A DNA stretch of 64,000 bases from a virus (IMGVR_UViG_3300033073_000980:8080-72079), one strand, 5' to 3'; shown: positions 44,322 through 64,000, numbered from the stretch's first letter. Made by a program: numbers and translations. The notes: generated from the letters alone by a model not told the origin.

Positions 44322-44774
44322 TTAGAATTGTTTAGTTGTTTTAGTTAAACTTTCTTGTAACGCTTTAGAAAACGCCTTTCGGTTTAACGGAACTTCGTTG
44401 TTTTCAACGTTTAAAAACATTGCAAAAACAAACGTTCTTCTTTCACCAACTGATTTGAAACAACCTGAACCAATACAAATACTGGTCTCAACAATATAAT
44501 CTTTTCTCAACCATTGGATTCCCATGATGTTTAGTATTTGCTGGGGTGAGTAAATACTATCTATCCCAACCTGAACATCAAAAGCAACTCCTGAATCAAC
44601 AGGGGTGTATCCTTTATTGATTAAAAGCTCTTCGACTTCTTCTTTAACTCCAAAAGTAACATTCCTACCCCCAATCGTTTCGATGTGCTGGTTGTTATTA
44701 ACATGCACTTTAACGAAGGTAGTATCTTTAATTGGAGCTAATGCAAATAGTATAGAAGCGAGTGTGCTTAACAT
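44322..44774 (-). CDS. exported alpha/beta protein, CsgG/TolB-N/LptE-like fold (tentative)
   Basis: Short hydrophobic N-terminus; GVKEEVEELLINKGY helix...AFSKALQESL C-terminal helix. Confidence 0.45.
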   Translation of the reverse strand: MLSTLASILFALAPIKDTTFVKVHVNNNQHIETIGGRNVTFGVKEEVEELLINKGYTPVDSGVAFDVQVGIDSIYSPQQILNIMGIQWLRKDYIVETSICIGSGCFKSVGERRTFVFAMFLNVENNEVPLNRKAFSKALQESLTKTTKQF

Positions 44775-44778
44775 CTAT

Positions 44779-44786
44779 TATAAATA
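44779..44786 (-). promoter_or_regulatory. class 2 (TATTTATA) putative late promoter of the lysis run
   Basis: 4 nt upstream of the ATG at 44774. Confidence 0.5.
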
Positions 44787-47095: not shown

Positions 47096-47774
47096 CGTTC
47101 CTGATTAAGCTTTCAATTACTTTAGTTGTAGCAGTCTCTAAAGACTTTCTAGTTGCTTTACCAACAGTGCTTTGTGAAAACTTCATATCAAGACTCTTCA
47201 GGAATGATTCTCCTACTTTAGTTGCTTCTCCCTCTCCTGAGCCGATGTATACTTGTCCGGTCATTGCATCCACGAACCGAACTTGGAGGCGTAAGAAAGT
47301 AGTAACGACAACTTTGCTCTTACCTTTCTCAACAGTCTCGTCTTCATCAACAGCAAAATCGGCCACAGTAACATAAACAAAGTAACGAGCAGCTTTAATT
47401 TTACCCTTTCCATCAATGGGCTCTTCGAAGACTCCTTTCTTTGAGGCTTTGAATTGGGTAACCATCCGTTCTTTGATTTCGGACTTTTCTTCGGTGAATA
47501 TAAATCTTCCTGTTTCATCTAAATAATCTAATACTGATTCTGCAAAACCTAAACCAACATTCTTTTCTTGAAGGTCTGGGTATAGAGCTAGAACCTTGGT
47601 CATATCAACGTTAATTACCTGAACAGCATATTTTAAACTGTCTGTGTAATTAGATACTGTTGAGATGTCTTTGGTCTCAATAACATCCTGCTCGGTGGTA
47701 GTCTTCATAGAACCACATCCGGCTAATGTCATAACCACCAAGGTCATAAACTTATTGAACCATTTTTTTACCAT
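47079..47774 (-). CDS. CsgG-family lipoprotein
   Basis: Lipobox LAG|C; GFAESVLDYLDETGRFIFTE, YFVYVTVADF, LQVRFVDAMTGQVY. Confidence 0.75.
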   Translation of the reverse strand: MVKKWFNKFMTLVVMTLAGCGSMKTTTEQDVIETKDISTVSNYTDSLKYAVQVINVDMTKVLALYPDLQEKNVGLGFAESVLDYLDETGRFIFTEEKSEIKERMVTQFKASKKGVFEEPIDGKGKIKAARYFVYVTVADFAVDEDETVEKGKSKVVVTTFLRLQVRFVDAMTGQVYIGSGEGEATKVGESFLKSLDMKFSQSTVGKATRKSLETATTKVIESLIRNGVFKN

Positions 47775-48094
47775 GGATCTTCTTCTTTAGCGGGTTCAGC
47801 TTTAGCAGGAGCAGCTGCTGGCTTTTCAACTACACGCTCTTTAATGATTGTGTTTGTTCCACCACCTTGCTTAACTTGCTGTTTGTTCTCTTGATTCTGT
47901 TGAACGTTAATTACAACAGGAGCAGCAGAACTAGCAGGAGCTGCTTGTTCAGTTTTAACTTCTTCTTTAGGCTCGTCACCACCGCCTAAGTGGGTTACAA
48001 ACCAAGCACCGCCGGCTGTAACTGCTGTAGTGATAGCACCAATGATTGCTTTCTTGGTAGCTGACATTACGCTTTCTTCTTTTTCTTCTGACAT
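47768..48094 (-). CDS. single-TM protein with low-complexity periplasmic stalk
   Basis: TM AIIGAITTAVTAGGAWFV; Ala/Pro/Glu/Gln-rich, ends EEDPW. Confidence 0.7.
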   Translation of the reverse strand: MSEEKEESVMSATKKAIIGAITTAVTAGGAWFVTHLGGGDEPKEEVKTEQAAPASSAAPVVINVQQNQENKQQVKQGGGTNTIIKERVVEKPAAAPAKAEPAKEEDPW

Positions 48095-48095
48095 A

Positions 48096-49988
48096 TTATT
48101 TATTTATAATTATTTTTGAAGTTGAGATTTTAGTATCTGTTTTTACAGACATTAAATAAAAGCCGTTATCTAAAGGAGTTAAATTTACTAAGTATTTGTA
48201 TTCTCCAGCAGGCATTTTGGTATTGATAACCTCCATTACCTCTCTTCCAATCAAATCACTAACAGATACTTCAGTTTGAGATTCTTGCTCAACTTTAAAT
48301 TGAACCATTACCTCACCTTGGGTTGGGTTAGGAAAGATAATAACTTCTCCTAAGTCGGTCAACTTAACAGGCTTATTAATTCTTCTTACTTCAATTACTC
48401 CCATGGCTGGAGTGATGTTCATATCTCTTGCATCATCACCTCCAACAAATTTAGGACCGGTCCAGATTGCAGCACTACCCCATTCTGATTGAGGCTTCTT
48501 AGCAATGAATTGCATAGTTAAGATCTGCTCACCATCGTTGATTAATTGATTACCTTTTAAGTCAGCAGCACCAAAAGCAACTACTCCGTTATCAGGGCTA
48601 GTGTATGAAGTCCAATTCATCATCTTTTCAGTCAAGTCAATTTTCTTGAACTCAAGTAATGCTGTGTCGTACTTTAACTCTAATTGAACTGCACCTAACT
48701 GTTTTCCGTTAGTAAGCATCTTAACAGGAACGTTAACTAAGTTACCTTCATCAACTTTAACCTTAGGCATATTAACTTCAATAGTCTCAGTTACATCATC
48801 ATACTGAACTGTGTTATCAATAATGTAATTCTTAGCATTGGTTGGGTTGATAATCTTAATAGGAGTCAAACGAGCCATCTTAAAGCCAGTTGCGTTTGCA
48901 TCTCCTTTAACTGCTACATAGTAAGTAATTGAATCCTTACCATCAATTGAGTAAGTCAAGTTATTAACAGTAGAGTAAGTAGAAGTTAAGTTAGTAGCTG
49001 CTCCATTGATTGCATTAAATTCGGCAACAGTGAAGAACATTACATCCTTTTTAGAATTAGGCCAAGCATTAAATCTACCTGCCAATCTTCCATATACTGA
49101 ATAAACATCTACAATGCTGATTGTTCCATCAGTTCCGTTAACGTCCATTGTGTAGTAATCAAATCCTGAAGGAGTGTATTGAGCTAAGACTGCTTGGTTG
49201 ATCTTCTGTGCATCAGCAGTTGAGAATACTGAACCAGGAGTCATTGTATCTCCTTTGATTGCCATTCTAACATCCCAGTAGGTAGTATCTAAGAATTTTC
49301 TGAATACAACATGACCTAGTGAGTTAGTTGCTTTAGCTTCTACTTGAGTCCAGGTTGAAGAACCTTTTGCTCTTTTCTCTAAAGATACCCACAAGTTCTT
49401 AGCATCTGAACCTGTAACGTTCTTAAACTTAGCAGCAAATCTTAACACCTTCTGATTGAAACGACCACCGTAAGAATAAACTACCAAAGTAGTATCATTA
49501 CCCCAGTTAGTAGCAGCTTTGTTTGCAAATGATTTAACTCCGGCTACTTTTAAAGTCTTAATAGAATCTAAGTTGTTCCAGATAGCTTCTCCGGCATGAG
49601 TGAAAGTTAAATCAAAGGTTGCTCCATCAGAATAATTGAAAGTTGAGTTAGTACCTGTGTAAACAACAGTAACTGTTAAGAACCCTTGAGCATTACTATC
49701 TACATACTGTAAGTACTGGTCTGTAGTAGAAATCTTCAATGTAGGAACAACTCCGGTGAATGCAGTGTTATCGTAGTAAATACGGTACTGCATACCTGTA
49801 ATCTTCTCAGAAGTAGATGTGTTGTAAAAATAAAGAGGGGCAACAGTTTGTCCGACAGTAGTTGTAGCTACTTGATAACCAGAATCAATTACTACCCAGT
49901 GCCCTGTTCCAGGTGAGGTTGATGCTGATTGTGCCGATACTCCGAAAACGGCTAAGGCCGTTAGAAGAAATGCGATGAGTTTTTTCAT
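48096..49988 (-). CDS. T9SS type A cargo: cohesin-like, dockerin-like, cohesin, CTD (scaffoldin-like)
   Basis: SP ...GVSA|Q; ITGMQYRIYYD; DVNGTDGTISIVD...KGDAN; VNVPV...LGAVQLELKYDTALLEF; IFPNPTQG...DLIGREV...NGFYLMSV...KIIINK. Confidence 0.85.
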   Translation of the reverse strand: MKKLIAFLLTALAVFGVSAQSASTSPGTGHWVVIDSGYQVATTTVGQTVAPLYFYNTSTSEKITGMQYRIYYDNTAFTGVVPTLKISTTDQYLQYVDSNAQGFLTVTVVYTGTNSTFNYSDGATFDLTFTHAGEAIWNNLDSIKTLKVAGVKSFANKAATNWGNDTTLVVYSYGGRFNQKVLRFAAKFKNVTGSDAKNLWVSLEKRAKGSSTWTQVEAKATNSLGHVVFRKFLDTTYWDVRMAIKGDTMTPGSVFSTADAQKINQAVLAQYTPSGFDYYTMDVNGTDGTISIVDVYSVYGRLAGRFNAWPNSKKDVMFFTVAEFNAINGAATNLTSTYSTVNNLTYSIDGKDSITYYVAVKGDANATGFKMARLTPIKIINPTNAKNYIIDNTVQYDDVTETIEVNMPKVKVDEGNLVNVPVKMLTNGKQLGAVQLELKYDTALLEFKKIDLTEKMMNWTSYTSPDNGVVAFGAADLKGNQLINDGEQILTMQFIAKKPQSEWGSAAIWTGPKFVGGDDARDMNITPAMGVIEVRRINKPVKLTDLGEVIIFPNPTQGEVMVQFKVEQESQTEVSVSDLIGREVMEVINTKMPAGEYKYLVNLTPLDNGFYLMSVKTDTKISTSKIIINK

Positions 49989-50446
49989 TTTTGTATGTTA
50001 GTTAATTGAGTTATTGCATGCTGTTTTAACCAAGGTTCAGGATTGTCTAACTTGTCAATAAAGTCAAGCTCGTACCTGTAACACCATGCTTCCTCTTGCT
50101 CAGGAATTATGATGTACCCTTTCTGTAAAACATGCAAATGCAAACTCTCATGAACTAACACCACTGCAAGGTTGTTAATTGAATTTAACTGCACATCTTT
50201 TATGGCAACCAGTATCGTTCCTTTGTTTCCATAACTTCCTTCATTAGAAGAAAAACCGGAAGACCAGAACTCTACCCTCTCACAAACACTATCTAACAAC
50301 TGATACTTTTCAATATCTGTTTTTTTAATTAACTGTAATGCTGAATCTATTTTTTGATCCCATCCGTCACCGGCTTTGTCTACTTTTATTTGAGCGTAAG
50401 CTAAGTTGGCTATAAGTAACAAACTAGTTAGAAATAGACCTTTCAT
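49985..50446 (-). CDS. secreted zinc metallopeptidase-like protein
   Basis: SP ...LAYA|Q; LVHESLH plus downstream EEAWCY. Confidence 0.7.
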   Translation of the reverse strand: MKGLFLTSLLLIANLAYAQIKVDKAGDGWDQKIDSALQLIKKTDIEKYQLLDSVCERVEFWSSGFSSNEGSYGNKGTILVAIKDVQLNSINNLAVVLVHESLHLHVLQKGYIIIPEQEEAWCYRYELDFIDKLDNPEPWLKQHAITQLTNIQK

Positions 50447-54951: not shown

Positions 54952-56031
54952 CTATTCCGGCTCTTCCTGGAAATAACCAGGTGTTGCATCCTCATAAGCT
55001 TCTTCTACTACATCGAAGTCTCCTCCTCCTAGAATAGCTGACCATTCTTTAGCATGAGCATCTTTGTACTTCTTAAGCTCTTTCTCATCATCGTTGATGA
55101 ATCCGTGAGGTGTCATAATGATTCTGCCTCGGGTTGTAATTCCATTGATATGATTCTTATCAATCTGGAGATTAGTTCTCTTGGCAAATTCTACCTGCTT
55201 ACCATCCTTGATTGCTTTAATCTTGGAAGTTCCTGCATTCATGATGTTACCAAACGTTACAACGAACGTTGCATCATACCACATAGCAAATCCGCCCTTA
55301 TTCATAAGTTTGGGTTGACCCATGGGTGATTCAGGCTTCTGAGTCCATACCTTATTAACTACTACGAGAGTGTTAGTGTAAGGAGAAGACTCTTTCCGAG
55401 ACATAACAATGCGTTGGTTTACACCGTTACCGAACTGAGTCGACATTGCACCTGCATTCCATTCGTTGTTATTCTTGTTAGAACGTACTGAAAGTTCACA
55501 GGGCACTGAACCGATTGAATCCCAGAGGAACAATAAGTCATGAGGTAGACTTCCTTTCTTCTGTTCGTCAATCAAGTCTAGAATAAATCCGGCAACGTCT
55601 TCGATTGTATTCAAGGTCTCTCTATCAACATAGATAAAGAATCCTCCGTAATCAACAACCTCACCGGTCTCTTCATCAACCGTTTGATCTACTTGCAGAC
55701 CCATCTGAATAGCATGTTCCCAATTCCATTTCATCTCTGTAATGATGAATACTGGAAGGATGCCTGCTTTCTGGGCTGATACTGCAGCTTCAAGCAATGC
55801 TGTGGTCTTTCCTGTATCGGAATGACCTCTCAGCATTACAATGTGGCCCATCGGGATTCCAGGGATTGAAGTTACTTCCTGGAAGGAAGGTGATAGAGGA
55901 ATCCATTTCTGCTCTTTGAACTTAACGTTGCTCTTAAGAAGCTTCTTCTCTTTGAATTTATCTAGAGAAAATCCTTTCTTAAGTTCAGCAGATACAGCCT
56001 CTGTTAACGAACCTCTTTCTTTTTTAGCCAT
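54952..56031 (-). CDS. RecA/UvsX-like recombinase
   Basis: GHSDTGKTT, FLWDSIGSV, LVVVNKVW, GGFAMWY. Confidence 0.92.
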   Translation of the reverse strand: MAKKERGSLTEAVSAELKKGFSLDKFKEKKLLKSNVKFKEQKWIPLSPSFQEVTSIPGIPMGHIVMLRGHSDTGKTTALLEAAVSAQKAGILPVFIITEMKWNWEHAIQMGLQVDQTVDEETGEVVDYGGFFIYVDRETLNTIEDVAGFILDLIDEQKKGSLPHDLLFLWDSIGSVPCELSVRSNKNNNEWNAGAMSTQFGNGVNQRIVMSRKESSPYTNTLVVVNKVWTQKPESPMGQPKLMNKGGFAMWYDATFVVTFGNIMNAGTSKIKAIKDGKQVEFAKRTNLQIDKNHINGITTRGRIIMTPHGFINDDEKELKKYKDAHAKEWSAILGGGDFDVVEEAYEDATPGYFQEEPE

Positions 56032-56037
56032 AGTCTA

Positions 56038-56901
56038 TTAGAAAGGTAAGTCGTTATCGTCGTCGTTGAATAGTGAATCGAACTTGTCAGCTTTTGATTC
56101 TACTTTCTTACCTTGTGCTTCCAAAGAGAATTTACTCTCGGGCTTTTTCCAAGGAAGTTCTTCAGTGGCGGCAGCTGCAGGCTTAACATCGTCGAAAGTT
56201 GCAGCAGGTTCAGAAGAGATTACTCCTTCTTCTTCGTCAGGTGCCAACCATTTTTGCAATACAGACTTCATATCATCGAAAGACATTCTAGAGAATACTT
56301 TCAAAGGATCTGGTTGATCGTTAAGAATGATCTGAAGCAATGCTTGATCTTCGGTCAAAACAGATTCTTTAGTACGTGCACGAACGGTAGTCTTATTAAA
56401 ACCAGTTCCTGTAGTATCGGCACCAACAGTAGTCAAGTTCAAGTCACGACCTGAAATGATGTCAGTGTAATCCCCGATATCCTCATCTTCTACCATAGAA
56501 AGCAATTCCATGTAGATCTCTTTACCGAAGCCCCAAAGCTTAACGCCTTCGGCTTCTTGACCTCTAACGATAATAGGTACGAATACTCGCATTTTAGGTT
56601 CGAGTTTACGAGCCAATCTCCAAGATTCTTTGTCTTTAGATTGACGCAATTGTTTTGCGAATTCAACAATAGGATCCTTCTCACCCCAGTTTGTAGGAGA
56701 GATGATTGGGTTCTTGTCGATTCCGTAGTGGAAAAACAACTCCGAAAAAGGATTTGATTTGTTGTACACAGAAGGTACAATACGAATTGTTTGCTTGCCC
56801 ACGGCAGGTTTCCAGAAGACATTCTTACGTGCCTCTCCAGAAGGACGGCTGTTCTGAGTTTGCAAAGAGTTAAGCTTTGCTCTAATTGAATTGATATCCA
56901 T
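56038..56901 (-). CDS. gp32-like single-stranded DNA-binding protein
   Basis: FWKP...IRIVP...FHY...DPIVE...KLWGFG...GRD; acidic tail ending DDDNDLPF. Confidence 0.85.
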   Translation of the reverse strand: MDINSIRAKLNSLQTQNSRPSGEARKNVFWKPAVGKQTIRIVPSVYNKSNPFSELFFHYGIDKNPIISPTNWGEKDPIVEFAKQLRQSKDKESWRLARKLEPKMRVFVPIIVRGQEAEGVKLWGFGKEIYMELLSMVEDEDIGDYTDIISGRDLNLTTVGADTTGTGFNKTTVRARTKESVLTEDQALLQIILNDQPDPLKVFSRMSFDDMKSVLQKWLAPDEEEGVISSEPAATFDDVKPAAAATEELPWKKPESKFSLEAQGKKVESKADKFDSLFNDDDNDLPF

Positions 56902-56912
56902 AATTTTTATTA

Positions 56913-56944
56913 TTAATATATGCTATTTGTTTCTGAATTGCAAC
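56913..56944 (-). promoter_or_regulatory. class 1 promoter of ssb-recA
   Basis: GTTGC-N17-CATATATTAA. Confidence 0.7.
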
Positions 56945-56948
56945 TTGT

Positions 56949-57227
56949 TTATTGCTGCTCATTGTTACCTCCAAATGTTTCGTTGTAGTATTGTTTTGCT
57001 GATTTGTATTTTTGTTCCCAAGTTCCATCCGGTAAATCAATACAATAATCTCCTTTATCCCAAGCATCTTCAATCTCCTCCTCATGCATTGCTTTACCTT
57101 GTTCAACTATTTCATTATACTTTCTGTTAAAAAATTCAACACCTATTTCTCTTCTAGATAATAAAGCGTGTATTAATGTTAAGTTTTCAATCACCCACTC
57201 AACACTACTTTGTTTATTGTTGCTCAT
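56949..57227 (-). CDS. cassette micro-gene (SSVEW...YYNETFGG family)
   Basis: MSNNKQSSVEW...YYNETFGGNNEQQ; start revised to 57227. Confidence 0.75.
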   Translation of the reverse strand: MSNNKQSSVEWVIENLTLIHALLSRREIGVEFFNRKYNEIVEQGKAMHEEEIEDAWDKGDYCIDLPDGTWEQKYKSAKQYYNETFGGNNEQQ

Positions 57228-57231
57228 AATT

Positions 57232-57453
57232 TTATCCGTTACGTTGTCCGCATTTGTGTTTGTGTTGAACATACCACATTATTCTAAATGTATTCAATAC
57301 AAAGAAGTAAGTATCAAATTCATTAATTTCATCTGTTGATTTACATATACCAGTATGGTACGCTCTTACTTTTGTTTTAAGTGTTTTTGCTGATTTTGGG
57401 AAAGTTTCAAACGATATAGCATATCGCTTTGTTAATTCAAAAGATTTATACAT
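57232..57453 (-). CDS. hypothetical protein
   Basis: 73-aa ORF inside array 1. Confidence 0.55.
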   Translation of the reverse strand: MYKSFELTKRYAISFETFPKSAKTLKTKVRAYHTGICKSTDEINEFDTYFFVLNTFRIMWYVQHKHKCGQRNG

Positions 57454-57470
57454 ATAATTTAGTAGTTTGT

Positions 57471-57596
57471 TTATTGTTGCTCATTGTTACCTCCTTTGTA
57501 AAGTCTGTCCATGTTTTGGTCAAAGTAGTCTACGATATACTTAAATGGAAGTGCATTCCACACTGTCTGAAAGATACTTTGTTTATTGTTGCTCAT
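57471..57596 (-). CDS. cassette micro-gene (41 aa)
   Basis: Manual ORF MSNNKQSIFQTVWNALPFKYIVDYFDQNMDRLYKGGNNEQQ. Confidence 0.65.
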   Translation of the reverse strand: MSNNKQSIFQTVWNALPFKYIVDYFDQNMDRLYKGGNNEQQ

Positions 57597-57843
57597 TGTT
57601 CATTTGGTTATAGTTATCCATTTCACTTTTTTCCTCCATCGCATTGTAGTCTGCAATATATTGCTCATTGTCTTCTATATGATTATGAAGTAACTCACAT
57701 ACCCAAGCATTTTCAAATTCGTAAATACCACAGTGTAGTAATGCATTATCGTAATCATCAAATATCTTAACACTGCCATCAACATTTTTGAAAAATTCTT
57801 TGCTGATAATATCAACGATGATATATTGTTTATTTTTGCTCAT
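57583..57843 (-). CDS. cassette micro-gene
   Basis: MSKNKQYIIVD...MNNEQQ; start revised to 57843. Confidence 0.7.
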   Translation of the reverse strand: MSKNKQYIIVDIISKEFFKNVDGSVKIFDDYDNALLHCGIYEFENAWVCELLHNHIEDNEQYIADYNAMEEKSEMDNYNQMNNEQQ

Positions 57844-58063
57844 TGTTACCTCCAAATGTTTCTTTATAGTAATCTTCAAATGTCTGGTAGTTACTCATCA
57901 AGTATTGCTTATATGTTCGCTCATGTTCCTTCTTATGTATTGCTTTAGCTTGTTCGGCAAAAATACTAATCAATTTTGGTGAAATTGAACCATACGTAGC
58001 TATTTCTTTCTGGATTTTGCTTTCTAGCCATTCAACGCTCATTTGTGTTTCGCCGTACTCCAT
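57830..58063 (-). CDS. cassette micro-gene (SVEW...YYKETFGG family)
   Basis: ...MSVEWLE...YYKETFGGNNEQK. Confidence 0.7.
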   Translation of the reverse strand: MEYGETQMSVEWLESKIQKEIATYGSISPKLISIFAEQAKAIHKKEHERTYKQYLMSNYQTFEDYYKETFGGNNEQK

Positions 58064-58066
58064 ATC

Positions 58067-58372
58067 TTATTTTTTAAATGTCCCCATAAATTCATCTATC
58101 GAAAATTTACTATCACCGTTCTGTGCTTTAAATAATTCAGATTGTACCTCATCATAAAAATTAATTCTATCCATAATAAAAGCAGCATCACTCTCTACTG
58201 CCATAAATTCTAAGGTCAGTATAATTTTTTTAACGCATACTAAAGCACAGTATATAGCTTCTCTGTAGCGTGATTCACAGCTATTAATACCTTCTTTTAA
58301 TGAACCGTTATTCGGTAGCATGAAGTAGTAATCATGAATCAGCTCTAATGCTGCTTTCTGGTGTGGTGTCAT
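58067..58372 (-). CDS. phage hypothetical protein
   Basis: MTPHQKAALELI...AIYCALVCV. Confidence 0.7.
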   Translation of the reverse strand: MTPHQKAALELIHDYYFMLPNNGSLKEGINSCESRYREAIYCALVCVKKIILTLEFMAVESDAAFIMDRINFYDEVQSELFKAQNGDSKFSIDEFMGTFKK

Positions 58373-58397
58373 TATTTTTTATTTCTTCTTGTGTTAG

Positions 58398-58428
58398 GTA
58401 ATATAATAAAAAATCCCCAAAATAGCAA
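58398..58428 (-). promoter_or_regulatory. class 1 promoter (spacer 1 nt short)
   Basis: GTTGC-N16-TATATATTAC. Confidence 0.45.
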
Positions 58429-58448
58429 CAAAAATGTTAGTAATTTCA

Positions 58449-58622
58449 TTATTCTACTATTGTTTCAACTACTGTTCTGTTGATTGGGAAGTACCAACTT
58501 TGGCTTGTTTCATTATTATAAAAACTATAAACCCCTGCTTGTGAATATATAAAATTATTTGCTTCAATTACCATATCAAATGAGTGAGTACCTATTTGAC
58601 CCCAAACTTTATATTTTTTCAT
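58449..58622 (-). CDS. small hypothetical protein (57 aa)
   Basis: Manual ORF MKKYKVWGQIG...VETIVE with AAGTTATG start context. Confidence 0.6.
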   Translation of the reverse strand: MKKYKVWGQIGTHSFDMVIEANNFIYSQAGVYSFYNNETSQSWYFPINRTVVETIVE

Positions 58623-58630
58623 AACTTATT

Positions 58631-58891
58631 TTAGTCAATTTTGATTACTGATTCGATTCGTGTTGTTTTACCTTCATGTACTTGATAGTTCAACACTGTT
58701 GGCATTTTGTCTGCTGTATCTTTTGGATACATTATCCAAATAGCATCATATCCATCTTCAGGTACAATACGTACTAGTTTATAGACTTTACCGTTTATTT
58801 CAATAAATTCTTGAGGTTGGTGTGTTATTTCACCTCTTTTTTGACATGAACCTAAAACAACAATGCTTAATACTAATAATATTTTTTTCAT
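58631..58891 (-). CDS. small lipoprotein
   Basis: MKKILLVLSIVVLGS|C. Confidence 0.75.
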   Translation of the reverse strand: MKKILLVLSIVVLGSCQKRGEITHQPQEFIEINGKVYKLVRIVPEDGYDAIWIMYPKDTADKMPTVLNYQVHEGKTTRIESVIKID

Positions 58892-58894
58892 AAC

Positions 58895-59044
58895 TTATTT
58901 TTTTATCTTACTAATACGCCATTCAATACTACTTTTTCTATGTATATGAATTTCATCCTGGAATGTTGTTTCTTTTCCTATCTCTAGATTAGCTGCAACG
59001 GTTGATATGTCGGCTATTGTTATTACTTTCTTTTTATTATTCAT
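58895..59044 (-). CDS. small hypothetical protein (49 aa)
   Basis: Manual ORF MNNKKEVITIAD...ISKIKK with AAGTTATG context. Confidence 0.55.
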   Translation of the reverse strand: MNNKKKVITIADISTVAANLEIGKETTFQDEIHIHRKSSIEWRISKIKK

Positions 59045-59047
59045 AAC

Positions 59048-59317
59048 TTATTTTTCTTCAAAAGTGTAAATGTATGTTGTGTCTGCTTTATTATCTTTAA
59101 TTGTAATTTCAATTGATGGTTTTACTTGGTGTTTTACTTTTTTATCTATTTGTTCTCCAATAGATATTCCTACACAAAACATGCCAAATAATGCTAATGC
59201 CAGTCCTGCTAAAAATAAATTTGTACTAGCTTCATCATCATAGTCACTTTTACTTGAATAACCAATAAATGTCATCAAAACACCTATAAATGCTAAAAGT
59301 CCAAATATCCATTCCAT
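59048..59317 (-). CDS. 2-TM membrane protein
   Basis: Two hydrophobic segments; ends DTTYIYTF. Confidence 0.7.
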   Translation of the reverse strand: MEWIFGLLAFIGVLMTFIGYSSKSDYDDEASTNLFLAGLALALFGMFCVGISIGEQIDKKVKHQVKPSIEITIKDNKADTTYIYTFEEK

Positions 59318-59320
59318 AAC

Positions 59321-59725
59321 TTATTTTGTTTTAGTTGAATCACTAGTTGTTTCATCAATATACTCTTCCATCTTTTTCAAAACCAACTCAGTTGCTTTGT
59401 ATGGAATTTTCTGAAGTGATGTATCTTTTTGAACATAGTCTAATGTTTTACTACCGGCAACAATCAAGATTGCTTCTTTAGTGTCAGGTGTCATGACGGC
59501 AAATAGTATAAAGATAATAGATGTGATACCCCACCTCTTCATTCCTTTGTGTCCGGCTGCTATTTTCTTTTCATCTGGTTTTTCACCATAAAAAATGTCA
59601 TATTGACTCATAGTGTAGATAAAATAACCTAATGCGCACATACCTGTAAAAATAGCCAATCCTACAAATAGTCCTTGAATTGAACTCAACCTAGTGAGTA
59701 AGTAAATAAATAATGTATTGTTCAT
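59321..59725 (-). CDS. membrane protein
   Basis: 2-3 TMs, TPDTKEA motif. Confidence 0.7.
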   Translation of the reverse strand: MNNTLFIYLLTRLSSIQGLFVGLAIFTGMCALGYFIYTMSQYDIFYGEKPDEKKIAAGHKGMKRWGITSIIFILFAVMTPDTKEAILIVAGSKTLDYVQKDTSLQKIPYKATELVLKKMEEYIDETTSDSTKTK

Positions 59726-59728
59726 ATG

Positions 59729-59968
59729 TTATATTTTATTGAATTTTCTTGTTTGTATTTTTACTATGTATTTTTGTGCTATTTTATGCCACCACCAATC
59801 AAAATCTCTATTGTAGTAAGTACATTTATGTTCTAGTATTTCTAGGAAAGCATCTTCAAAAGTGGTATGTGTTGTTCTGTATTGTCCATCTCTCAACACA
59901 TACCATACACCATTTTTAAATTTGAATTTGTAGTTTTTTCTTATATTCTTTAATAATTTAGTTTTCAT
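59729..59968 (-). CDS. basic hypothetical protein
   Basis: MKTKLLKNIRK start. Confidence 0.6.
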   Translation of the reverse strand: MKTKLLKNIRKNYKFKFKNGVWYVLRDGQYRTTHTTFEDAFLEILEHKCTYYNRDFDWWWHKIAQKYIVKIQTRKFNKI

Positions 59969-60037
59969 CGATCTTTCAGTTTATCGTTTATAGCACCTAA
60001 GTAAAGTATTACCACTATTAATAAAAATACAACCATA

Positions 60038-60451
60038 TTAATCTTCTATTTCAGCGTCCCACTCAGTTAAAACAAATTTCAAATCCAATCCTGTAATTTT
60101 AGTTTTATCTTCATTACAGAAAGCCATTGCCTGAAATCCGCCAGTGCTATGAATAATGCCTTGTTCCCAATGTGTATCTTTGTATTGACCTAATCTAGCT
60201 TCAGCAGCACCTCTAAGTAAACGTTCTGCTTCTTCTCTTAGCATTTCAATAGTCACATATTCACCAACCCATTTCCAACCTAAGTAGTCCATTGTATTTT
60301 GGACTTTAGCAAAATTGAATTCATCTAAAATTTCATCAATCATTTGATTGACAGGATCCAAATGCACCTTTTCAGTTGATTGTGGATTCATTTTGTTAAG
60401 CAAGGTCTGTAATTGCTTCAACTCTTTGGGGTTTAAATTTCCAATATTCAT
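60038..60451 (-). CDS. phage hypothetical protein
   Basis: IDEILDEFNFAKV...LGWKW...STGGFQA. Confidence 0.7.
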   Translation of the reverse strand: MNIGNLNPKELKQLQTLLNKMNPQSTEKVHLDPVNQMIDEILDEFNFAKVQNTMDYLGWKWVGEYVTIEMLREEAERLLRGAAEARLGQYKDTHWEQGIIHSTGGFQAMAFCNEDKTKITGLDLKFVLTEWDAEIED

Positions 60452-60457
60452 ATTAAG

Positions 60458-61264
60458 TTAAAAGGGGAGTATTTGTTGTTCTTTTTTATTAGTAGCTACA
60501 GTAGGTCTTGGAGCCAACCCAGCACTTATAATTTCCATGATATCATTCTTATGTTTTGCTTGTCCGTTTAAAGCATATCGCATTTTAGCTTCAAAGATAG
60601 TAAGCAGATTAGATACTTTGTACTTGAATCCTTTATACTCAATAATTTCATATCTTTGTTTTGGATCAATTTTATAATCAACTTTGACTCCATCATAAAT
60701 AAAAGTCTCATCAAAATCATTAGCTGAGGCTTTACCGTCTAAATGTTGTACTATACCTTCTTCTCCTTCTGGGTCCTCAACTAATACAAAGTATGGGGAA
60801 ATCATGTCTAAATCTGATGAGTTTTTATCTATCCAACGTTTTAGTCTTACTCCATGAAGAAATAACCCTACAGATCCGCCAACATGAAACATAGGGTATC
60901 TTTCTTGAATCTCTTTAACAATATCCAAACGCAGTCTACTTTCTATTTTAGTTATGTGTTTTTCAGTTTGTTTTTGAGTAAGTTCGTACCTTGAAATCTC
61001 TTTTAAAATTTTAAACGAGGTAGTAACTGATTTGTCTTTTTCATCTGTATAAGTTCCCAGAATTTGGATCTCACAGAACCGATTAGAATTGTTATCTGAG
61101 TAGTGATCAAAAACATCCTCTAACTTATTGCAGTAATGATAGCCATCAGCGGTACATGTTCTTGGGTTTTTAATTTCTAAATTTTTAGAGTAAACTTCAC
61201 CTATGGCAAATTGCTCTCCTCGACATTTTAAGTCTTTATCAAAACCTTTGTATGCTATTTTCAT
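60458..61264 (-). CDS. two-domain protein: phage AYKGFD domain + nucleotidyltransferase-like domain
   Basis: AYKGFDKDLKCRG...GYHYC...RFCE; HVGGSVGLFLHG...DLD. Confidence 0.6.
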   Translation of the reverse strand: MKIAYKGFDKDLKCRGEQFAIGEVYSKNLEIKNPRTCTADGYHYCNKLEDVFDHYSDNNSNRFCEIQILGTYTDEKDKSVTTSFKILKEISRYELTQKQTEKHITKIESRLRLDIVKEIQERYPMFHVGGSVGLFLHGVRLKRWIDKNSSDLDMISPYFVLVEDPEGEEGIVQHLDGKASANDFDETFIYDGVKVDYKIDPKQRYEIIEYKGFKYKVSNLLTIFEAKMRYALNGQAKHKNDIMEIISAGLAPRPTVATNKKEQQILPF

Positions 61265-61269
61265 AACTT

Positions 61270-61542
61270 TTATTTTAATTTAACTAATTCACTGATTAAC
61301 ATTGCAACATCATCTGTTGTTTGACGAGGCATAACATCCGATTCACCCTTTGGATAAACTGTCCAATGTCCATCGTTCCAAGTCATCCAATCACCATCAC
61401 CGTTCCAAGCAGCAACTTCTGCTGTTGTTTCACCTTCATCACAATAATTGCCTTTGCTAAATTGAACACTAATAGTGCATCCGTTAGCGAAGTCCATTTG
61501 AAACCCGTGATGCCATTCGTTGTTTTCTGCTCTAAAATTCAT
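61270..61542 (-). CDS. phage hypothetical protein
   Basis: FANGCTISVQ...NYC...AEVA. Confidence 0.7.
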   Translation of the reverse strand: MNFRAENNEWHHGFQMDFANGCTISVQFSKGNYCDEGETTAEVAAWNGDGDWMTWNDGHWTVYPKGESDVMPRQTTDDVAMLISELVKLK

Positions 61543-61556
61543 AACTCTTATTTATC

Positions 61557-61588
61557 TAAATGTACGAAGATTACTTTGAAGAGGCAAC
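61557..61588 (-). promoter_or_regulatory. class 1 promoter
   Basis: GTTGC-N17-CGTACATTTA. Confidence 0.7.
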
Positions 61589-61590
61589 TG

Positions 61591-61806
61591 TTATTTTCTT
61601 TTTCTTGCCTTTTTAGCTGCTTTAGCCTTAGCTCTTGACTTAGTTTGCTTTTTGGTGAGCGGTCCTTTAGTAGGAGTTGAAGATCTTCCGTACATTGATT
61701 CATCCCAATCAAAATGTTCCATTGCTCGTTTTAACCCCTCAGTGTAGTCTGTTCCTGTTAGAATACCTGCTAAAGGTAGAATTGATTCTTTGCTTAATTT
61801 TGTCAT
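61591..61806 (-). CDS. small protein with basic tail
   Basis: Ends KSRAKAKAAKKARKRK. Confidence 0.65.
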   Translation of the reverse strand: MTKLSKESILPLAGILTGTDYTEGLKRAMEHFDWDESMYGRSSTPTKGPLTKKQTKSRAKAKAAKKARKRK

Positions 61807-61820
61807 AACTTCTATTTATC

Positions 61821-61852
61821 TAAATGTACGAATTAAATTTTAAAATTCCAAA
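61821..61852 (-). promoter_or_regulatory. class 1 promoter
   Basis: TTTGG-N17-CGTACATTTA; -7 element and leader nearly identical to 61540-61568. Confidence 0.6.
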
Positions 61853-61854
61853 TA

Positions 61855-62046
61855 TTACTTTCGAAAATTTGAAATTAAAACCGGTACCCAGCATGCAACA
61901 AATGTGACTGTTATTCCAAATAGGATACCGTGCATTGGATTTTTAAAACTTGTGTTCGAAGCTCCGGCTAATGCTCCCATTAAAGTCATTATAAGTGCTA
62001 TGTTCAGTCCCGGATGTTCTTTTAGCCTCTTAAAGTAGTTTTTCAT
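61855..62046 (-). CDS. 2-TM membrane protein
   Basis: Two hydrophobic segments. Confidence 0.65.
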   Translation of the reverse strand: MKNYFKRLKEHPGLNIALIMTLMGALAGASNTSFKNPMHGILFGITVTFVACWVPVLISNFRK

Positions 62047-62281
62047 TTAGTTCTTCGAGTTGTGTTTCTAGTTCTTGTATTTGCTGCTTTAATTCCTCAA
62101 TCTCCTCATCCTTTCTTTCAATACAGGAAGGGCAAGCGTTTACTTCTACCTGTAGGTAACCTCTACTCCTGCTCTTACGGGTACTAGATTCTGAGCATAG
62201 TCCCTCTCCACAAGTACCGCAAAAGACTTCAAAGTCCACAGTGGTAGTAGCTGTTACTTCTACATCATCAAAACTAGGCAT
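62030..62281 (-). CDS. Zn-finger + coiled-coil small protein
   Basis: CGTCG...CPSC then coiled coil; start revised to MPSFDD at 62281. Confidence 0.65.
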   Translation of the reverse strand: MPSFDDVEVTATTTVDFEVFCGTCGEGLCSESSTRKSRSRGYLQVEVNACPSCIERKDEEIEELKQQIQELETQLEELNEKLL

Positions 62282-62516
62282 CTTGACCTCCAAATGTTTC
62301 GTTGTAGTAATGTTCGGCTTGGTGTAAATTAGCCCCAAATCCTGTTGTATAAGATTTTTTTATCTCCTCCTTCTGCATTGCTTTGGCTTGTTCTTCTATT
62401 TTTATGAGTTTTGCATCATATTCAATTGGTGAAATTAGCCCTAAACGGCTTTGAATTTCTATAGTATGTCTTTCAATAATATACCACTCTACACTACTTT
62501 GTTTATTGTTGCTCAT
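62274..62516 (-). CDS. cassette micro-gene (SSVEW...YYNETFGG family)
   Basis: MSNNKQSSVEW...YYNETFGGQDA. Confidence 0.75.
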   Translation of the reverse strand: MSNNKQSSVEWYIIERHTIEIQSRLGLISPIEYDAKLIKIEEQAKAMQKEEIKKSYTTGFGANLHQAEHYYNETFGGQDA

Positions 62517-62706
62517 TGTTACCTCCTTGTATTTCAGTTAGTTTTTCTTCTATGCATTGTTTTTGATACTCAAGATGCAGTATTTCTGAATGTTTTTTTA
62601 TTACTAAATATGCATTGTCTAATAATTCTTTTTCTTGTTCTGTTCGCCATCCTGTTTTCATAATGCACAGTGCATCAATTAGCGATAGTTGTTTATTATT
62701 GCTCAT
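62503..62706 (-). CDS. cassette micro-gene
   Basis: MSNNKQLSL...IQGGNNEQQ. Confidence 0.75.
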   Translation of the reverse strand: MSNNKQLSLIDALCIMKTGWRTEQEKELLDNAYLVIKKHSEILHLEYQKQCIEEKLTEIQGGNNEQQ

Positions 62707-62960
62707 TTGTTACCTCCTTTGTTTTCTGGGTGAATAGGATTCTTACAGTTACCCTTATGACACAAACTGTATCTGTGGCCTGAACTGTATTCAAAGTACT
62801 CACAGTCCTCTATAACGATTAGTTTTAAGGGCTTGTTACCGTACTCGGTTACAATTTCAGTTGATTGTCTTGTGACTGTTGGTTCATCGCAACTACTTAT
62901 CATTCCTATAAGTAATGTTGCTAATATTAGTTTTTTCATGATTTGTTTATTGTTGCTCAT
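62703..62960 (-). CDS. cassette micro-gene encoding a lipoprotein
   Basis: MSNNKQI-MKKLILATLLIGMISS|C...LCHKGNCKNPIH...GGNK. Confidence 0.75.
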   Translation of the reverse strand: MSNNKQIMKKLILATLLIGMISSCDEPTVTRQSTEIVTEYGNKPLKLIVIEDCEYFEYSSGHRYSLCHKGNCKNPIHPENKGGNK

Positions 62961-63207
62961 TGTTACCTCCTTGTATTTTATTAGAAAAATATTTTGTATA
63001 ATACCACTTTAATCTTGCACCTTGTGATTCTTCAAGAAATCCCAATTGAATTTCAGTATCAATATAAAAAATGTATCTTTTCAATATCTCCTCCTCGCTT
63101 GGTAGTTCGATTGGGTTCATTTTGTCAATAAATTGAACGATGTCTTCATCCCTTACTTGAAAAAAATCCAACATTTCTTTTACTTGTTCTTCTGTGTATA
63201 GTCTCAT
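62947..63207 (-). CDS. cassette micro-gene (LYTE...PIELPS family)
   Basis: MRLYTEEQV...PIELPSEEEI...KIQGGNNEQQ. Confidence 0.75.
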   Translation of the reverse strand: MRLYTEEQVKEMLDFFQVRDEDIVQFIDKMNPIELPSEEEILKRYIFYIDTEIQLGFLEESQGARLKWYYTKYFSNKIQGGNNEQQ

Positions 63208-63449
63208 TGCTCACATCCTCCGTAGGTTTCGTTGTAGTGTTCATCAAAATCTTTTTTGAATGTCATTTCTGCTGCGTTATCAAATTGAGAAGTCGAATCA
63301 AGCCAAGTTTTTTTGTGTTGTTTCTTCTCCATTTCTTTGGCTTCTTGGTATGCTACAAGGTTAGTGTATTCATTGTAAACTAATAATCCTTGATTTGCTA
63401 ATGTCTCAAAAGCAAAATCCACTGCCGTTTGTTGTTTATTGTTGCTCAT
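63204..63449 (-). CDS. cassette micro-gene (TAVDF...YNETYGG family)
   Basis: MSNNKQQTAVDF...HYNETYGGCEQ. Confidence 0.75.
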   Translation of the reverse strand: MSNNKQQTAVDFAFETLANQGLLVYNEYTNLVAYQEAKEMEKKQHKKTWLDSTSQFDNAAEMTFKKDFDEHYNETYGGCEQ

Positions 63450-63660
63450 TGTTAAATATATTTTTTACAAATGTTACTTCTTCAAAATCATTTTCTAAAA
63501 TAAGTTTTGTTAAATCGCTTTGGTCGTACCCATAACTTTTTGACATTCTTTCTTCAAAGTAATGCCAAGTGTTGTTGAACCATAAGAATTTAGATACACC
63601 ATTTACTGTTTGACCTATATCAAACACATCTCCGTTTTTTATTTGTTTATTGTTGCTCAT
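63436..63660 (-). CDS. cassette micro-gene
   Basis: MSNNKQIKNGDVF...FNNEQQ. Confidence 0.75.
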   Translation of the reverse strand: MSNNKQIKNGDVFDIGQTVNGVSKFLWFNNTWHYFEERMSKSYGYDQSDLTKLILENDFEEVTFVKNIFNNEQQ

Positions 63661-63907
63661 TGTTACCTCCTTGTATTTTACTAATTACCATTTTTGCACC
63701 ATTAAAAAAACTCAATTCAAAGTATTCCCTTTTAAGTGCTTCTTCCTCAATCTCCTTATCACTTGGTAGTTCGATCGGAGTTATGTTTTTCAACTCTTCC
63801 GAAAATATGAATGGGTTATAATTTTTACCTGCTGTAAATGCCGCTTTGGCTAATTCAATTAATTGGTCTTCTGTGTATAGTTTCATACTTTGTTTATTGT
63901 TGCTCAT
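63647..63907 (-). CDS. cassette micro-gene (LYTE...PIELPS family)
   Basis: MSNNKQSMKLYTEDQL...PIELPSDKEI...KIQGGNNEQQ. Confidence 0.75.
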   Translation of the reverse strand: MSNNKQSMKLYTEDQLIELAKAAFTAGKNYNPFIFSEELKNITPIELPSDKEIEEEALKREYFELSFFNGAKMVISKIQGGNNEQQ

Positions 63908-63919
63908 AACTTTTATTTT

Positions 63920-64000
63920 TTAGTGTGTGTGTAGTAATTCCTGATAGACTTTTCCGTCTAAGGTTTCTTTCTTTAATGCTTTATTCTCAGAGTCACATAC
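63920..64000 (-). CDS. 3' end of a gene entering from the right edge
   Basis: Open frame VCDSENKALKKETLDGKVYQELLHTH-stop. Confidence 0.35.
   Translation of the reverse strand, partial: VCDSENKALKKETLDGKVYQELLHTH

What the first reader, a model, noticed from the sequence alone, without database searches (positions are those of the whole stretch)
56945..63907. Micro-gene cassette arrays joined by a 28-nt repeat that is both the stop of one gene and the start of the next
Seen: GGAGGTAACAATGAGCAACAATAAACAA occurs 4x exactly, 3x near-exactly and 4x as 18-22-nt partials, in two clusters. Frame 1 reads GGNNEQQ-stop; frame 2 reads MSNNKQ. Consecutive ORFs therefore overlap by 14 nt, and 40-95-aa proteins share identical ends around unrelated cores. 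One copy has a +1 A that converts the junction to an ATGA overlap and keeps coupling intact. Inference: recombination between any two junctions deletes, duplicates or swaps whole genes while preserving stop, start and translational coupling. That is an integrase-free gene-cassette system, possibly driven by the phage RecA/SSB encoded right next to array 1. Shared termini could also serve as common targeting or degradation tags.
Basis: partly seen in the sequence, partly recalled or inferred. Interest (0 to 1): 0.85.

Follow-up and report, generated by a model that had tools for sequence, protein, structure and literature searches.

The report
Gene-swapping stop/start joint in phages
A 28-base sequence that ends one tiny gene and starts the next is shared, letter for letter, by many otherwise unrelated viruses of Bacteroidota bacteria, and comparing them shows that whole small genes are gained, lost and swapped at exactly this sequence.

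Summary
The 18-base core ATGAGCAACAATAAACAA occurs 11 times (at most 1 mismatch), all on the minus strand, in two clusters. Six copies carry the full 28-mer and one carries the +1A form; none is expected by chance.

The window is the end of a 72-kb fragment of a roughly 166-kb Bacteroidota phage. The arrays are promoterless small early genes upstream of the gp32-like SSB gene.

The exact 28-mer is in 31 other viral contigs, and the core is in more than 119. It is attached to at least 30 protein families, in phages of 65 to 295 kb that share almost nothing else with this one.

Homology between contigs starts or stops at the repeat. Relatives with 88-93% identical SSB carry 0 to 7 copies in different orders. 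91% of MSNNKQ leaders use one codon string that codon usage predicts at 0.7%, so conservation is at the DNA/RNA level, not the peptide level.

Best reading: a portable stop/start junction that doubles as a short-homology crossover point. It resembles the PeSL cassettes of T4-like phages but is translational rather than transcriptional.

The cores are not all unrelated: two paralog families dominate. A link to RecA/SSB and a peptide-tag role are not supported.

This scan has reported the same kind of junction array in at least eight other phages.

The parts
63647..63907 (-). Cassette, family F1 (86 aa, MSNNKQ-S-MKLYTEDQ...KIQGGNNEQQ). Its leader at 63890-63907 has no junction upstream. The contig ends 93 nt further on.
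63643..63670 (-). Junction repeat, 28/28: tail GGNNEQQ-stop, GGAGG, and ATG leader of the next gene; 14-nt overlap
63436..63660 (-). Cassette, family F3 (74 aa). About 75% aa identical to a gene of the unrelated 65-kb phage G005, whose copy runs about 20 aa further where this one switches to ...NNEQQ.
63432..63453 (-). Partial junction (22/22, no GGAGGT); tail ...IFNNEQQ-stop
63204..63449 (-). Cassette, F0-like (81 aa, MSNNKQ-QTAVDF...HYNETYGGCEQ); ATGA overlap with the next gene
62947..63207 (-). Cassette, F1 paralog without leader (86 aa, MRLYTEEQ...KIQGGNNEQQ)
62943..62970 (-). Junction repeat, 28/28
62703..62960 (-). Cassette, family F2 (85 aa): a lipoprotein-like signal (MKKLILATLLIGMISSC) preceded by the add-on leader MSNNKQI; ends GGNK
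62689..62717 (-). +1A junction variant (GGAGGTAACAA + ATGAGCAATAATAAACAA); ATGA overlap; a recurrent allele
62503..62706 (-). Cassette, family F7 (67 aa). 88% aa identical to a gene of phage G004 that starts MSNYEN instead of the leader.
62499..62526 (-). Junction repeat, 28/28
62274..62516 (-). Cassette, family F0 (80 aa, MSNNKQ-SSVEW...AKAMQKEE...YYNETFGGQDA); predicted helical hairpin
62279..62291 (-). Half junction GGAGGTCAAGATG: tail-type GGAGGT plus the start of a gene without leader (62030-62281)
57830..58063 (-). Cassette, F0 without leader (77 aa, ...YYKETFGGNNEQK); first cassette of array 1
57826..57853 (-). Junction repeat, 27/28
57583..57843 (-). Cassette, family F8 (86 aa, MSKNKQYII...). 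92.6% nt identical to a cassette in relative L057. The homology is bounded by the two flanking repeats, and L057 has the cassette in a different position.
57579..57600 (-). Partial junction (22/22); tail ...QMNNEQQ-stop
57471..57596 (-). Cassette, family F12 (41 aa)
57467..57494 (-). Junction repeat, 28/28. Its leader opens only a 12-aa orphan ORF (57446-57484), so here it serves as the tail of the preceding cassette.
56949..57227 (-). Cassette, family F0 (92 aa); leader-only copy at 57210-57227
56945..56972 (-). Terminal junction repeat, 27/28. Its leader opens a 26-aa ORF (56882-56962) that runs through the conserved 5' region of the SSB gene and overlaps its start.
56038..56901 (-). gp32-like SSB gene: the conserved downstream anchor of array 1
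58067..58372 (-). Conserved small gene (MTPHQKAALE...): the upstream anchor of array 1 in relatives

Best explanation
The 28-mer is a portable gene junction. It carries the last codons and stop of one small early gene, a GGAGG block 5 nt before the ATG, and the first six codons of the next gene. Promoterless genes are therefore chained with overlapping stop and start.

Because the same nucleotides sit at many gene borders, in this phage and in many other Bacteroidota phages, the junction is the preferred point of homologous (short-homology) crossover. Recombination between any two copies, within a genome or between co-infecting phages, deletes, duplicates, inserts or replaces whole genes and leaves every reading frame and start intact.

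Shown here: the anatomy; nucleotide-level conservation; spread across phage lineages; variable cassette content among close relatives; breakpoints at the repeat.

Inferred: that the genes are translationally coupled; that recombination is homology-driven (by a phage or host recombinase, or by template switching); and that recombinability, rather than expression, is what keeps the sequence identical.
For: 1. Real and non-random: 11 copies in one orientation, against 0 in shuffles.

2. Widespread. The exact 28-mer is in 31 other IMG/VR stretches with GC 27-43%. In 185,579 bacterial species genomes there are only 4 MAG contigs, and three of them carry the same cassette arrays.

3. Attached to at least 30 protein families, including lipoprotein, membrane and 629-aa proteins. 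Members of one family occur with and without the leader or tail.

4. Nucleotide-level conservation. 77 of 85 MSNNKQ leaders use the identical 18-mer, although this phage's codon usage predicts about 0.7% (the AGC Ser codon is 8%). Variant copies mostly change the peptide: 62 non-synonymous against 15 synonymous codon changes.

5. Breakpoints. In 29 junction pairs one flank is highly similar (up to 150/150) and the other unrelated, with identity starting or stopping at the repeat edge. One such pair lies within a single 126-kb genome. In array regions 38% of internal homology endpoints lie at a leader, against 6.3% expected by position. 51% of leader sites carry a breakpoint, against 15-22% of other gene starts.

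6. Relatives. Between the same two anchor genes, phages with 88-93% identical SSB carry 0, 2, 3, 4, 5 or 7 leaders in different orders. One cassette is shared at 92.6% nt identity, bounded by two repeats, in another position. The complete relative G001 (RecA 97%, PolA 90%) lacks almost all of 56902-64000.

7. Cross-lineage. Only 9 ORFs of this contig have a homologue in the 65-kb phage G005, and 8 of those lie in the arrays. G004 and G005 have no detectable PolA, SSB or RecA homologue of this phage.

8. No other machinery. No promoter or terminator excess, no inverted repeats, no tyrosine integrase, no Rfam family.

9. Scars. There are orphan leaders that only terminate the preceding cassette (57446-57484, 56882-56962). 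The leader is joined to the SSB 5' region in three different registers in relatives.

10. Contig ends. 18 of 51 whole contigs end within 150 nt of a leader, against 2.1 expected. This fits assembly graphs branching there because neighbours differ within populations.
Against: All comparisons use metagenome-assembled contigs; no reads, circles or experiments were available.

Phage mosaic joints fall at gene borders anyway, so part of the enrichment is expected. The control with other gene starts gives only a 2.3- to 3.3-fold excess, and the pairs are not independent.

28 nt is near the lower limit for efficient RecA-type exchange (my own knowledge, not tested here).

Exact conservation of the core even where no gene reads into it (63890, 57210) fits direct selection on the mRNA start region equally well.

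The one recent tandem duplication I could resolve (G003 versus G002) has a leader-like patch of non-parental sequence at its joint, not a clean crossover inside the repeat.

Translational coupling is inferred from the overlaps only. Bacteroidota, and 115 of 131 genes of this phage, do not use Shine-Dalgarno sites, so the role of GGAGG is unclear.
Confidence: 0.68

Rival explanations
1. The sequence is kept identical mainly because it is an optimised or regulated translation start region. It could be an unstructured, A-rich initiation and re-initiation site, or the common operator of a translational repressor or nuclease that shuts off early genes together (as T4 RegA, RegB or gp32 do). Shuffling at it would then be a by-product.
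For: It covers the ribosome-binding region and first codons. It has no predicted structure (MFE 0), and leader starts fold slightly less than other starts (-2.5 vs -4.1 kcal/mol, p = 0.08). The core is exact even at first-in-array copies with no upstream gene. GGAGG occurs almost only at these junctions in an otherwise SD-less genome. All copies lie in the early region and in one orientation.
Against: Family members work without it: 21 of 120 F1 homologues start directly at MKLYTE. No RegA or RegB homologue was found, though those Pfam models rang in no control genome, so this is weak evidence. Phages with nothing else in common would all need the same trans-factor, which could then only be a host factor. 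Orphan leaders open meaningless 12- and 26-aa ORFs. This reading does not explain why other blocks inside the genes are also conserved at nucleotide level.
Confidence: 0.22
2. The shared ends are functional peptide tags (N-terminal MSNNKQ, C-terminal GGNNEQQ) for targeting, packaging or degradation.
For: Many different proteins carry the same ends.
Against: One codon string accounts for 91% of the leaders, which peptide selection does not predict. Variants mostly change the peptide. The tail alternates with GGNK, GGEQ and others through 1-nt shifts. The leader precedes an intact lipoprotein signal peptide with its own Met. In the F0 model residues 1-7 and 76-80 are coil.
Confidence: 0.04
3. 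The repeats are merely the conserved ends of one tandemly duplicated gene family, with no role of their own.
For: Two paralog families (F0, F1) make up 6 of the 11 cassettes in the window and are very large: at least 282 and at least 388 homologues.
Against: At least 30 families with unrelated cores carry the same ends. The ends are nucleotide-identical while the cores are unalignable. Homologues exist without the ends.
Confidence: 0.03
4. A dedicated site-specific recombinase, as in integrons, moves the cassettes, with the 28-mer as its site.
For: The cassettes are promoterless, co-oriented and bounded by repeats. One leader-bearing phage (G005) has a serine recombinase gene 1.3 kb from its array.
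Against: There is no tyrosine integrase in five phages. No serine recombinase was found in G000, G001, G002 or G004. The site has no inverted repeat or hairpin. Joints occur in different registers.
Confidence: 0.03

Closest known systems
PeSLs (promoter-early stem-loops) of T4-type phages (Arbiol et al. 2010, PMC2839356; Comeau et al. 2014, PMC4122927)
   Same: Short conserved regulatory motifs repeated in hyperplastic early regions, next to small orphan genes. Insertions, deletions and replacements between relatives have their ends in the motif. The proposed mechanism is homologous recombination between copies, including excised mini-circles. The moved gene brings its own expression signal.
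   Different: A PeSL is intergenic, about 100 bp, and made of a sigma-70 promoter plus a terminator stem-loop. Here the element is 28 nt, lies inside two overlapping reading frames, has no promoter, terminator or stem-loop, and supplies the translational signals (stop, GGAGG, start, first codons). It is also shared between phages with no common core genes, not only within one phage family.
Linker or boundary sequences of the modular theory of phage evolution (Susskind and Botstein 1978; conserved boundary sequences in lambdoid phages, Clark et al. 2001); cited from my own knowledge, not read here
   Same: Short conserved sequences at gene borders that guide homologous exchange of modules between otherwise dissimilar phages.
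   Different: Those are few, weakly conserved and intergenic. Here one exact sequence is repeated up to 11 times per genome fragment and is dual-coding.
Start-associated sequences (SAS) of Cluster K mycobacteriophages (Pope et al. 2011, PMC3203893)
   Same: An asymmetric repeat in one orientation that contains an SD-like core. It lies a few bases before the ATG of many non-structural genes of different families, is sometimes overlapped by the upstream stop, is phage-specific, and has no known partner.
   Different: The SAS is 13 bp, lies wholly upstream of the start, and is restricted to one phage cluster. It was proposed to act in translation, with no reported role in shuffling. The sequence is unrelated.
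Integron gene cassettes (attC sites and IntI)
   Same: Promoterless, co-oriented single-gene cassettes bounded by a repeat; arrays differ among relatives.
   Different: No integrase. No hairpin-forming imperfect inverted repeat. The repeat is coding and supplies the start and stop.
Mini-cassette organisation of Neisseria pilE/pilS (my own knowledge)
   Same: Short nucleotide-conserved blocks alternate with hypervariable segments and serve as crossover points for segmental exchange. Compare the blocks inside families F0 and F1.
   Different: That is a bacterial antigenic-variation system with one expression locus and silent donors. Here all copies appear to be expressed genes, and exchange is between phage genomes.

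Membership tests
PeSL cassettes of T4-type phages | Repeat contains a sigma-70-type early promoter | tested here: not met
   32 promoter-like sites in 56000-64000 against 34.9 expected, none tied to the repeat. The genes overlap, so there is no intergenic space. The Bacteroidota-type motif TTTG..TAnnTTTG is also absent there.
PeSL cassettes of T4-type phages | Repeat contains a stem-loop terminator or attenuator | tested here: not met
   The 28-mer folds with MFE 0. Terminator-like sites: 3 against 2.7 expected. No inverted repeats.
PeSL cassettes of T4-type phages | Concentrated in hyperplastic regions next to small orphan genes | tested here: met
   All copies lie in the early small-gene region. 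The cassettes have no Pfam family. The region is almost absent from the complete relative G001.
PeSL cassettes of T4-type phages | Indels and replacements between relatives end in the repeat | tested here: met
PeSL cassettes of T4-type phages | Excised mini-circles carrying one chimeric repeat | not testable with these tools
   Needs PCR or long reads from infected cells or virions.
Integron cassette system | IntI-type tyrosine recombinase encoded with the array | tested here: not met
   PF00589 is absent from G000, G001, G002, G004 and G005; the control genomes scored 14/14.
Integron cassette system | attC: imperfect inverted repeat that folds as a hairpin | tested here: not met
Integron cassette system | Promoterless, co-oriented cassettes | tested here: met
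Start-associated sequences (Cluster K mycobacteriophages) | 13-bp consensus GGGATAGGAGCCC 3-7 bp upstream of start codons | tested here: not met
   The sequence differs, and more than half of the repeat lies inside the downstream ORF. It is a functional analogy only.
T4 RegA/RegB-type post-transcriptional control of early genes | Phage encodes a RegA or RegB homologue | tested here: inconclusive
   No PF01818 or PF10715 match in five phages, but these models rang in no control genome and G000 is only 44% complete.
Translationally coupled overlapping genes (general) | Stop of the upstream gene overlaps or abuts the start of the downstream gene, with an SD-like site inside the upstream gene | tested here: met
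   Overlaps of 14, 4, 11 or 8 nt with GGAGG 5 nt before the ATG. Actual coupling was not tested.

The most novel reading that the evidence does not exclude
Freshwater Bacteroidota phages of unrelated lineages draw on one common pool of small early genes that is built combinatorially at two levels. Whole genes are exchanged at the dual-coding stop/start junction. Halves of genes are exchanged at further nucleotide-conserved blocks inside them (the codons for MKLYTEEQ, IELPSDEEI, AKAMHKEE, YYNETFGG and KIQGG). On this reading the conserved blocks persist because lineages that keep them can keep recombining (second-order selection). That would be a standing, enzyme-independent 'grammar' for inventing host-takeover or anti-defence proteins.
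Probability: 0.3. Interest if true: 0.8.

Novelty: new variant of a known kind. Interest (0 to 1): 0.6.

Why it matters
The modular theory of phage evolution has long postulated linker sequences that guide exchange of genes between dissimilar phages. Clear examples are few, and PeSLs of T4-like phages are the best one.

Here one exact dual-coding sequence marks the exchange points for dozens of gene families in phages that otherwise share nothing. Every recombinant is viable by construction, because frame, stop and start are all preserved.

This gives a concrete, testable route for how small early genes (typically host-takeover and anti-defence genes) spread and diversify among phages of Bacteroidota. 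It also raises the question of what a GGAGG site does in a host group that largely ignores Shine-Dalgarno sequences.

Practically, such junctions explain why assemblies of these phages break in early regions. They could also serve as primer sites to survey the cassette pool.

Tried and rejected
- **blastn of 56001-64000 against 50,697 GenBank phages:** no match, so there is no cultured relative to lean on.
- **PHROGs and Pfam on ten cassettes:** nothing usable.
- **Structure of family F0:** a confident helical hairpin (pLDDT 85.7) but no PDB match at E <= 0.001, so the function of the cassettes stays unknown.
- **Rfam on the arrays:** nothing.
- **RegA, RegB and ribosomal protein S21 homologues:** none found. 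The RegA/RegB searches are uninformative because the controls did not ring.
- **mRNA structure at leader starts:** only slightly and not significantly weaker than at other starts, p = 0.08.
- **Tandem duplication in G003 versus G002:** examined as a possible clean unequal crossover in the repeat. The joint is at a leader but contains a non-parental leader-like patch, so it is only loosely supportive.
- **The neighbouring RecA-like/SSB genes as the dedicated engine:** rejected as a general explanation, because array-bearing phages G004 and G005 lack homologues.
- **Literature search:** text searches for the peptide and DNA motifs found nothing.
- **Earlier notes by sequence:** nothing found.

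Full report
**1. Observation**

The full 28-mer occurs four times exactly and twice with one mismatch, all on the minus strand. No match occurred in 100 dinucleotide-preserving shuffles. The 18-base core ATGAGCAACAATAAACAA occurs 11 times with at most one mismatch. The copies form two clusters, 56945-57853 and 62499-63907. There is no further copy in the whole 72,079-bp contig.

The upstream gene ends GGNNEQQ-stop, the next starts MSNNKQ, and they overlap by 14 nt. The copy at 62689-62717 has one extra A, which gives GGNK-stop and an ATGA overlap.

Two corrections are needed. The element is on the minus strand. The 11 cassettes fall into 7 families, not 11 unrelated cores. Family F0 (SVEW...AKAMHKEE...YYNETFGG) has four members and family F1 (MKLYTEEQ...IELPSDEEI...KIQGG) has two.

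**2. Context**

The window is the last 64 kb of an IMG/VR contig that CheckV rates 44% complete. A complete relative is 166 kb with terminal repeats.

All genes lie on the minus strand. Downstream of array 1 come these genes:
- a gp32-like SSB
- a RecA-like protein
- a flap endonuclease
- a DnaB helicase
- a ribonucleotide reductase
- PolA
- a chaperonin
- a protein with a type IX secretion sorting domain, which points to a Bacteroidota host

The arrays are therefore small early genes in front of the replication module. They show no excess of promoter-like or terminator-like sites, no inverted repeats and no Rfam family.

115 of 131 genes have no Shine-Dalgarno-like site, as is usual for this host phylum. 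Seven of the ten GGAGG sites placed before a start are in the arrays, six at junction repeats and one at the half junction.

**3. Distribution**

The exact 28-mer is present in 31 other viral contig stretches with GC from 27 to 43%.

It occurs in clusters in nearly complete phages of 65, 126, 166, 233 and 295 kb. Of these, only the 166-kb phage shares PolA and a close SSB with this one, and only the 166-kb and 295-kb phages share the RecA-like protein.

Against the 65-kb phage, only nine ORFs of this contig find a homologue, and eight of them lie in the arrays.

One genome for each of 185,579 bacterial and archaeal species gave four hits. All are MAG contigs. Three are from Bacteroidota bins and carry the same F0/F1 cassettes; the fourth is a lone chance match. 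The element is thus phage-borne and crosses phage lineages.

**4. What is conserved**

Across the window and the loci in hand the leader is attached to at least 30 protein families. Members of one family occur with and without it. In F1, 76 of 120 homologues start MSNNKQ-S-MKLYTE and 21 start directly at MKLYTE. A lipoprotein family has its own Met and signal peptide after the leader.

Of 85 distinct MSNNKQ leaders, 77 use the identical codon string. This phage's codon usage would give that string a probability of about 0.007, since AGC is only 8% of Ser codons. Variant copies mostly change the peptide.

In an AlphaFold model of F0 (pLDDT 85.7) the leader and tail residues are coil outside a helical hairpin.

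Conservation is therefore at the DNA or RNA level, which speaks against peptide tags.

**5. Shuffling**

Among 94 junctions, 29 pairs have one flank highly similar (up to 150 of 150 bases) and the other unrelated. Both flanks are similar only in near-identical contig pairs. Alignments show identity beginning or ending at the edge of the repeat. One such pair lies within a single 126-kb genome.

In array regions 38% of internal homology endpoints lie at a leader, against 6.3% expected by position. 51% of leader sites carry a breakpoint, against 15-22% of other gene starts.

Eighty loci were anchored on the SSB gene. Among them, relatives with 88-93% identical SSB carry 0, 2, 3, 4, 5 or 7 leaders in many different orders between the same two anchor genes. 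The cassette at 57583-57843 recurs at 92.6% identity in another position, with the homology bounded by two repeats. The complete relative lacks almost all of 56902-64000.

Orphan leaders that open only 12- and 26-aa ORFs mark the ends of sub-arrays. The last one abuts the conserved 5' region of the SSB gene in three different registers among relatives.

Eighteen of 51 whole contigs end within 150 nt of a leader, against 2.1 expected, and this contig ends 93 nt past one. That is what assembly graphs do when neighbours differ within a population.

**6. Mechanism and rivals**

The best-supported account is a portable stop/start junction that chains promoterless genes. Because it is identical at many borders, it channels homologous crossovers, so every product keeps frame, stop and start. 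No tyrosine integrase is present in five array-bearing phages. Only one has a serine recombinase.

The main rival, which is not exclusive, is that the sequence is kept by direct selection as an initiation or operator site. It is unstructured and exact even where no gene reads into it. However, relatives do without it, no RegA/RegB-like partner was found (weak evidence), and phages with no shared genes would need a common (host) factor.

Adjacency to RecA/SSB is a consequence of the early-region layout, not a specific link.

Caveats:
- All evidence is from assembled metagenomes.
- The breakpoint counts are not independent events.
- 28 nt is short for RecA-type exchange (my own knowledge).
- The one recent duplication I resolved has a non-parental leader-like patch at its joint.

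**7. Comparison with what is known**

The closest system is the PeSL cassette of T4-type phages. These are repeats in hyperplastic regions at which relatives differ by insertions, deletions and replacements, with excised mini-circles.

The present element works like a PeSL but fails its two defining structural features, the promoter and the stem-loop. It is dual-coding and translational, and it is shared across unrelated phages. It resembles the start-associated sequences of Cluster K mycobacteriophages in position and integron cassettes in layout, but it meets the defining features of neither.

I found no paper containing these motifs.

Earlier notes of this scan describe the same kind of dual-coding junction array, with other sequences, in at least eight other phages. 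Those notes are unchecked here and are not counted as evidence. They do mean the kind is recurrent.

**8. Verdict**

This is a real and well-supported feature: a new variant of a known kind (recombination linkers in phage hyperplastic regions).

Three points deserve follow-up:
- exact cross-lineage conservation of the junction
- GGAGG in an SD-poor system
- further nucleotide-conserved blocks inside the cassettes that appear to support exchange of gene halves

Noticed in passing
window 62274-62516, 56949-57227, 63647-63907, 62947-63207; homologues P0001-P0240: Inside families F0 and F1, short blocks are conserved at nucleotide level while the segments between them are hypervariable. The MKLYTEEQ block is identical in 25/32 24-mers, the AKAMHKEE block has 20/26 copies in two 24-mers one base apart, the IELPSDEEI block is identical in 17/33 27-mers, and the KIQGG block is identical in 39/43. 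N- and C-halves assort independently: one N-half cluster is joined to many C-half clusters, and four-gamete cases exist. This suggests sub-genic shuffling at internal linkers.
   Followed up: partly
whole contig; junctions in 56945-63670: 115 of 131 genes have no SD-like site. GGAGG 5 nt before an ATG is almost confined to the junction repeats (7 of 10 cases lie in the arrays). Its role in a Bacteroidota host, where SD pairing is generally not used, is unexplained.
   Followed up: partly
window 56882-56962 and the 45 nt before the SSB start at 56901: A 26-aa ORF opened by the terminal leader overlaps the SSB start. The SSB 5' region beginning AAGTTGC is conserved in all relatives with or without a leader, and may be a promoter or regulatory element of the gp32-like gene.
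   Followed up: partly
L121 (G003:C1:140500-146800) versus L122 (G002:C1:203500-208800): A 233-kb jumbo phage has a 1.08-kb tandem duplication of two cassettes relative to its 99-100% identical 295-kb relative. The joint is a leader-like patch (MTNDKQQTAIG) from neither parent copy.
   Followed up: yes
G005:C1:49363-49809: A small serine recombinase gene (Resolvase domain, E = 1e-43) lies about 1.3 kb from the cassette array of the 65-kb phage. It is absent from the other four array-bearing phages searched.
   Followed up: no
window 44322-50446 versus G004 27.6-36.0 kb: The cell-surface module (T9SS-sorted cohesin protein and its neighbours) is shared at 58-85% aa identity with the otherwise unrelated 126-kb phage G004. 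This is a second horizontally shared block besides the arrays.
   Followed up: no
51 whole IMG/VR contigs (e.g. L124, L170, L187); window end 64000: Contigs end within 150 nt of a leader far more often than chance (18 against 2.1 expected). This contig ends 93 nt past its last leader.
   Followed up: yes
L077, about 80-110 nt upstream of its SSB start: A relative has what looks like the 3' end of a tRNA gene (GGTTCGAGTCC T-arm) where this phage has array 1.
   Followed up: no
loci L007, L011, L013, L015, L024-L026, L034: A second junction class, GGAGGTGAGCA + ATGACAAACAATAAACAA (tail GGEQ-stop, leader MTNNKQ, 4-nt overlap), often extended to MTNNKQQTA, co-occurs with the main class. There are 23 distinct copies.
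   Followed up: partly
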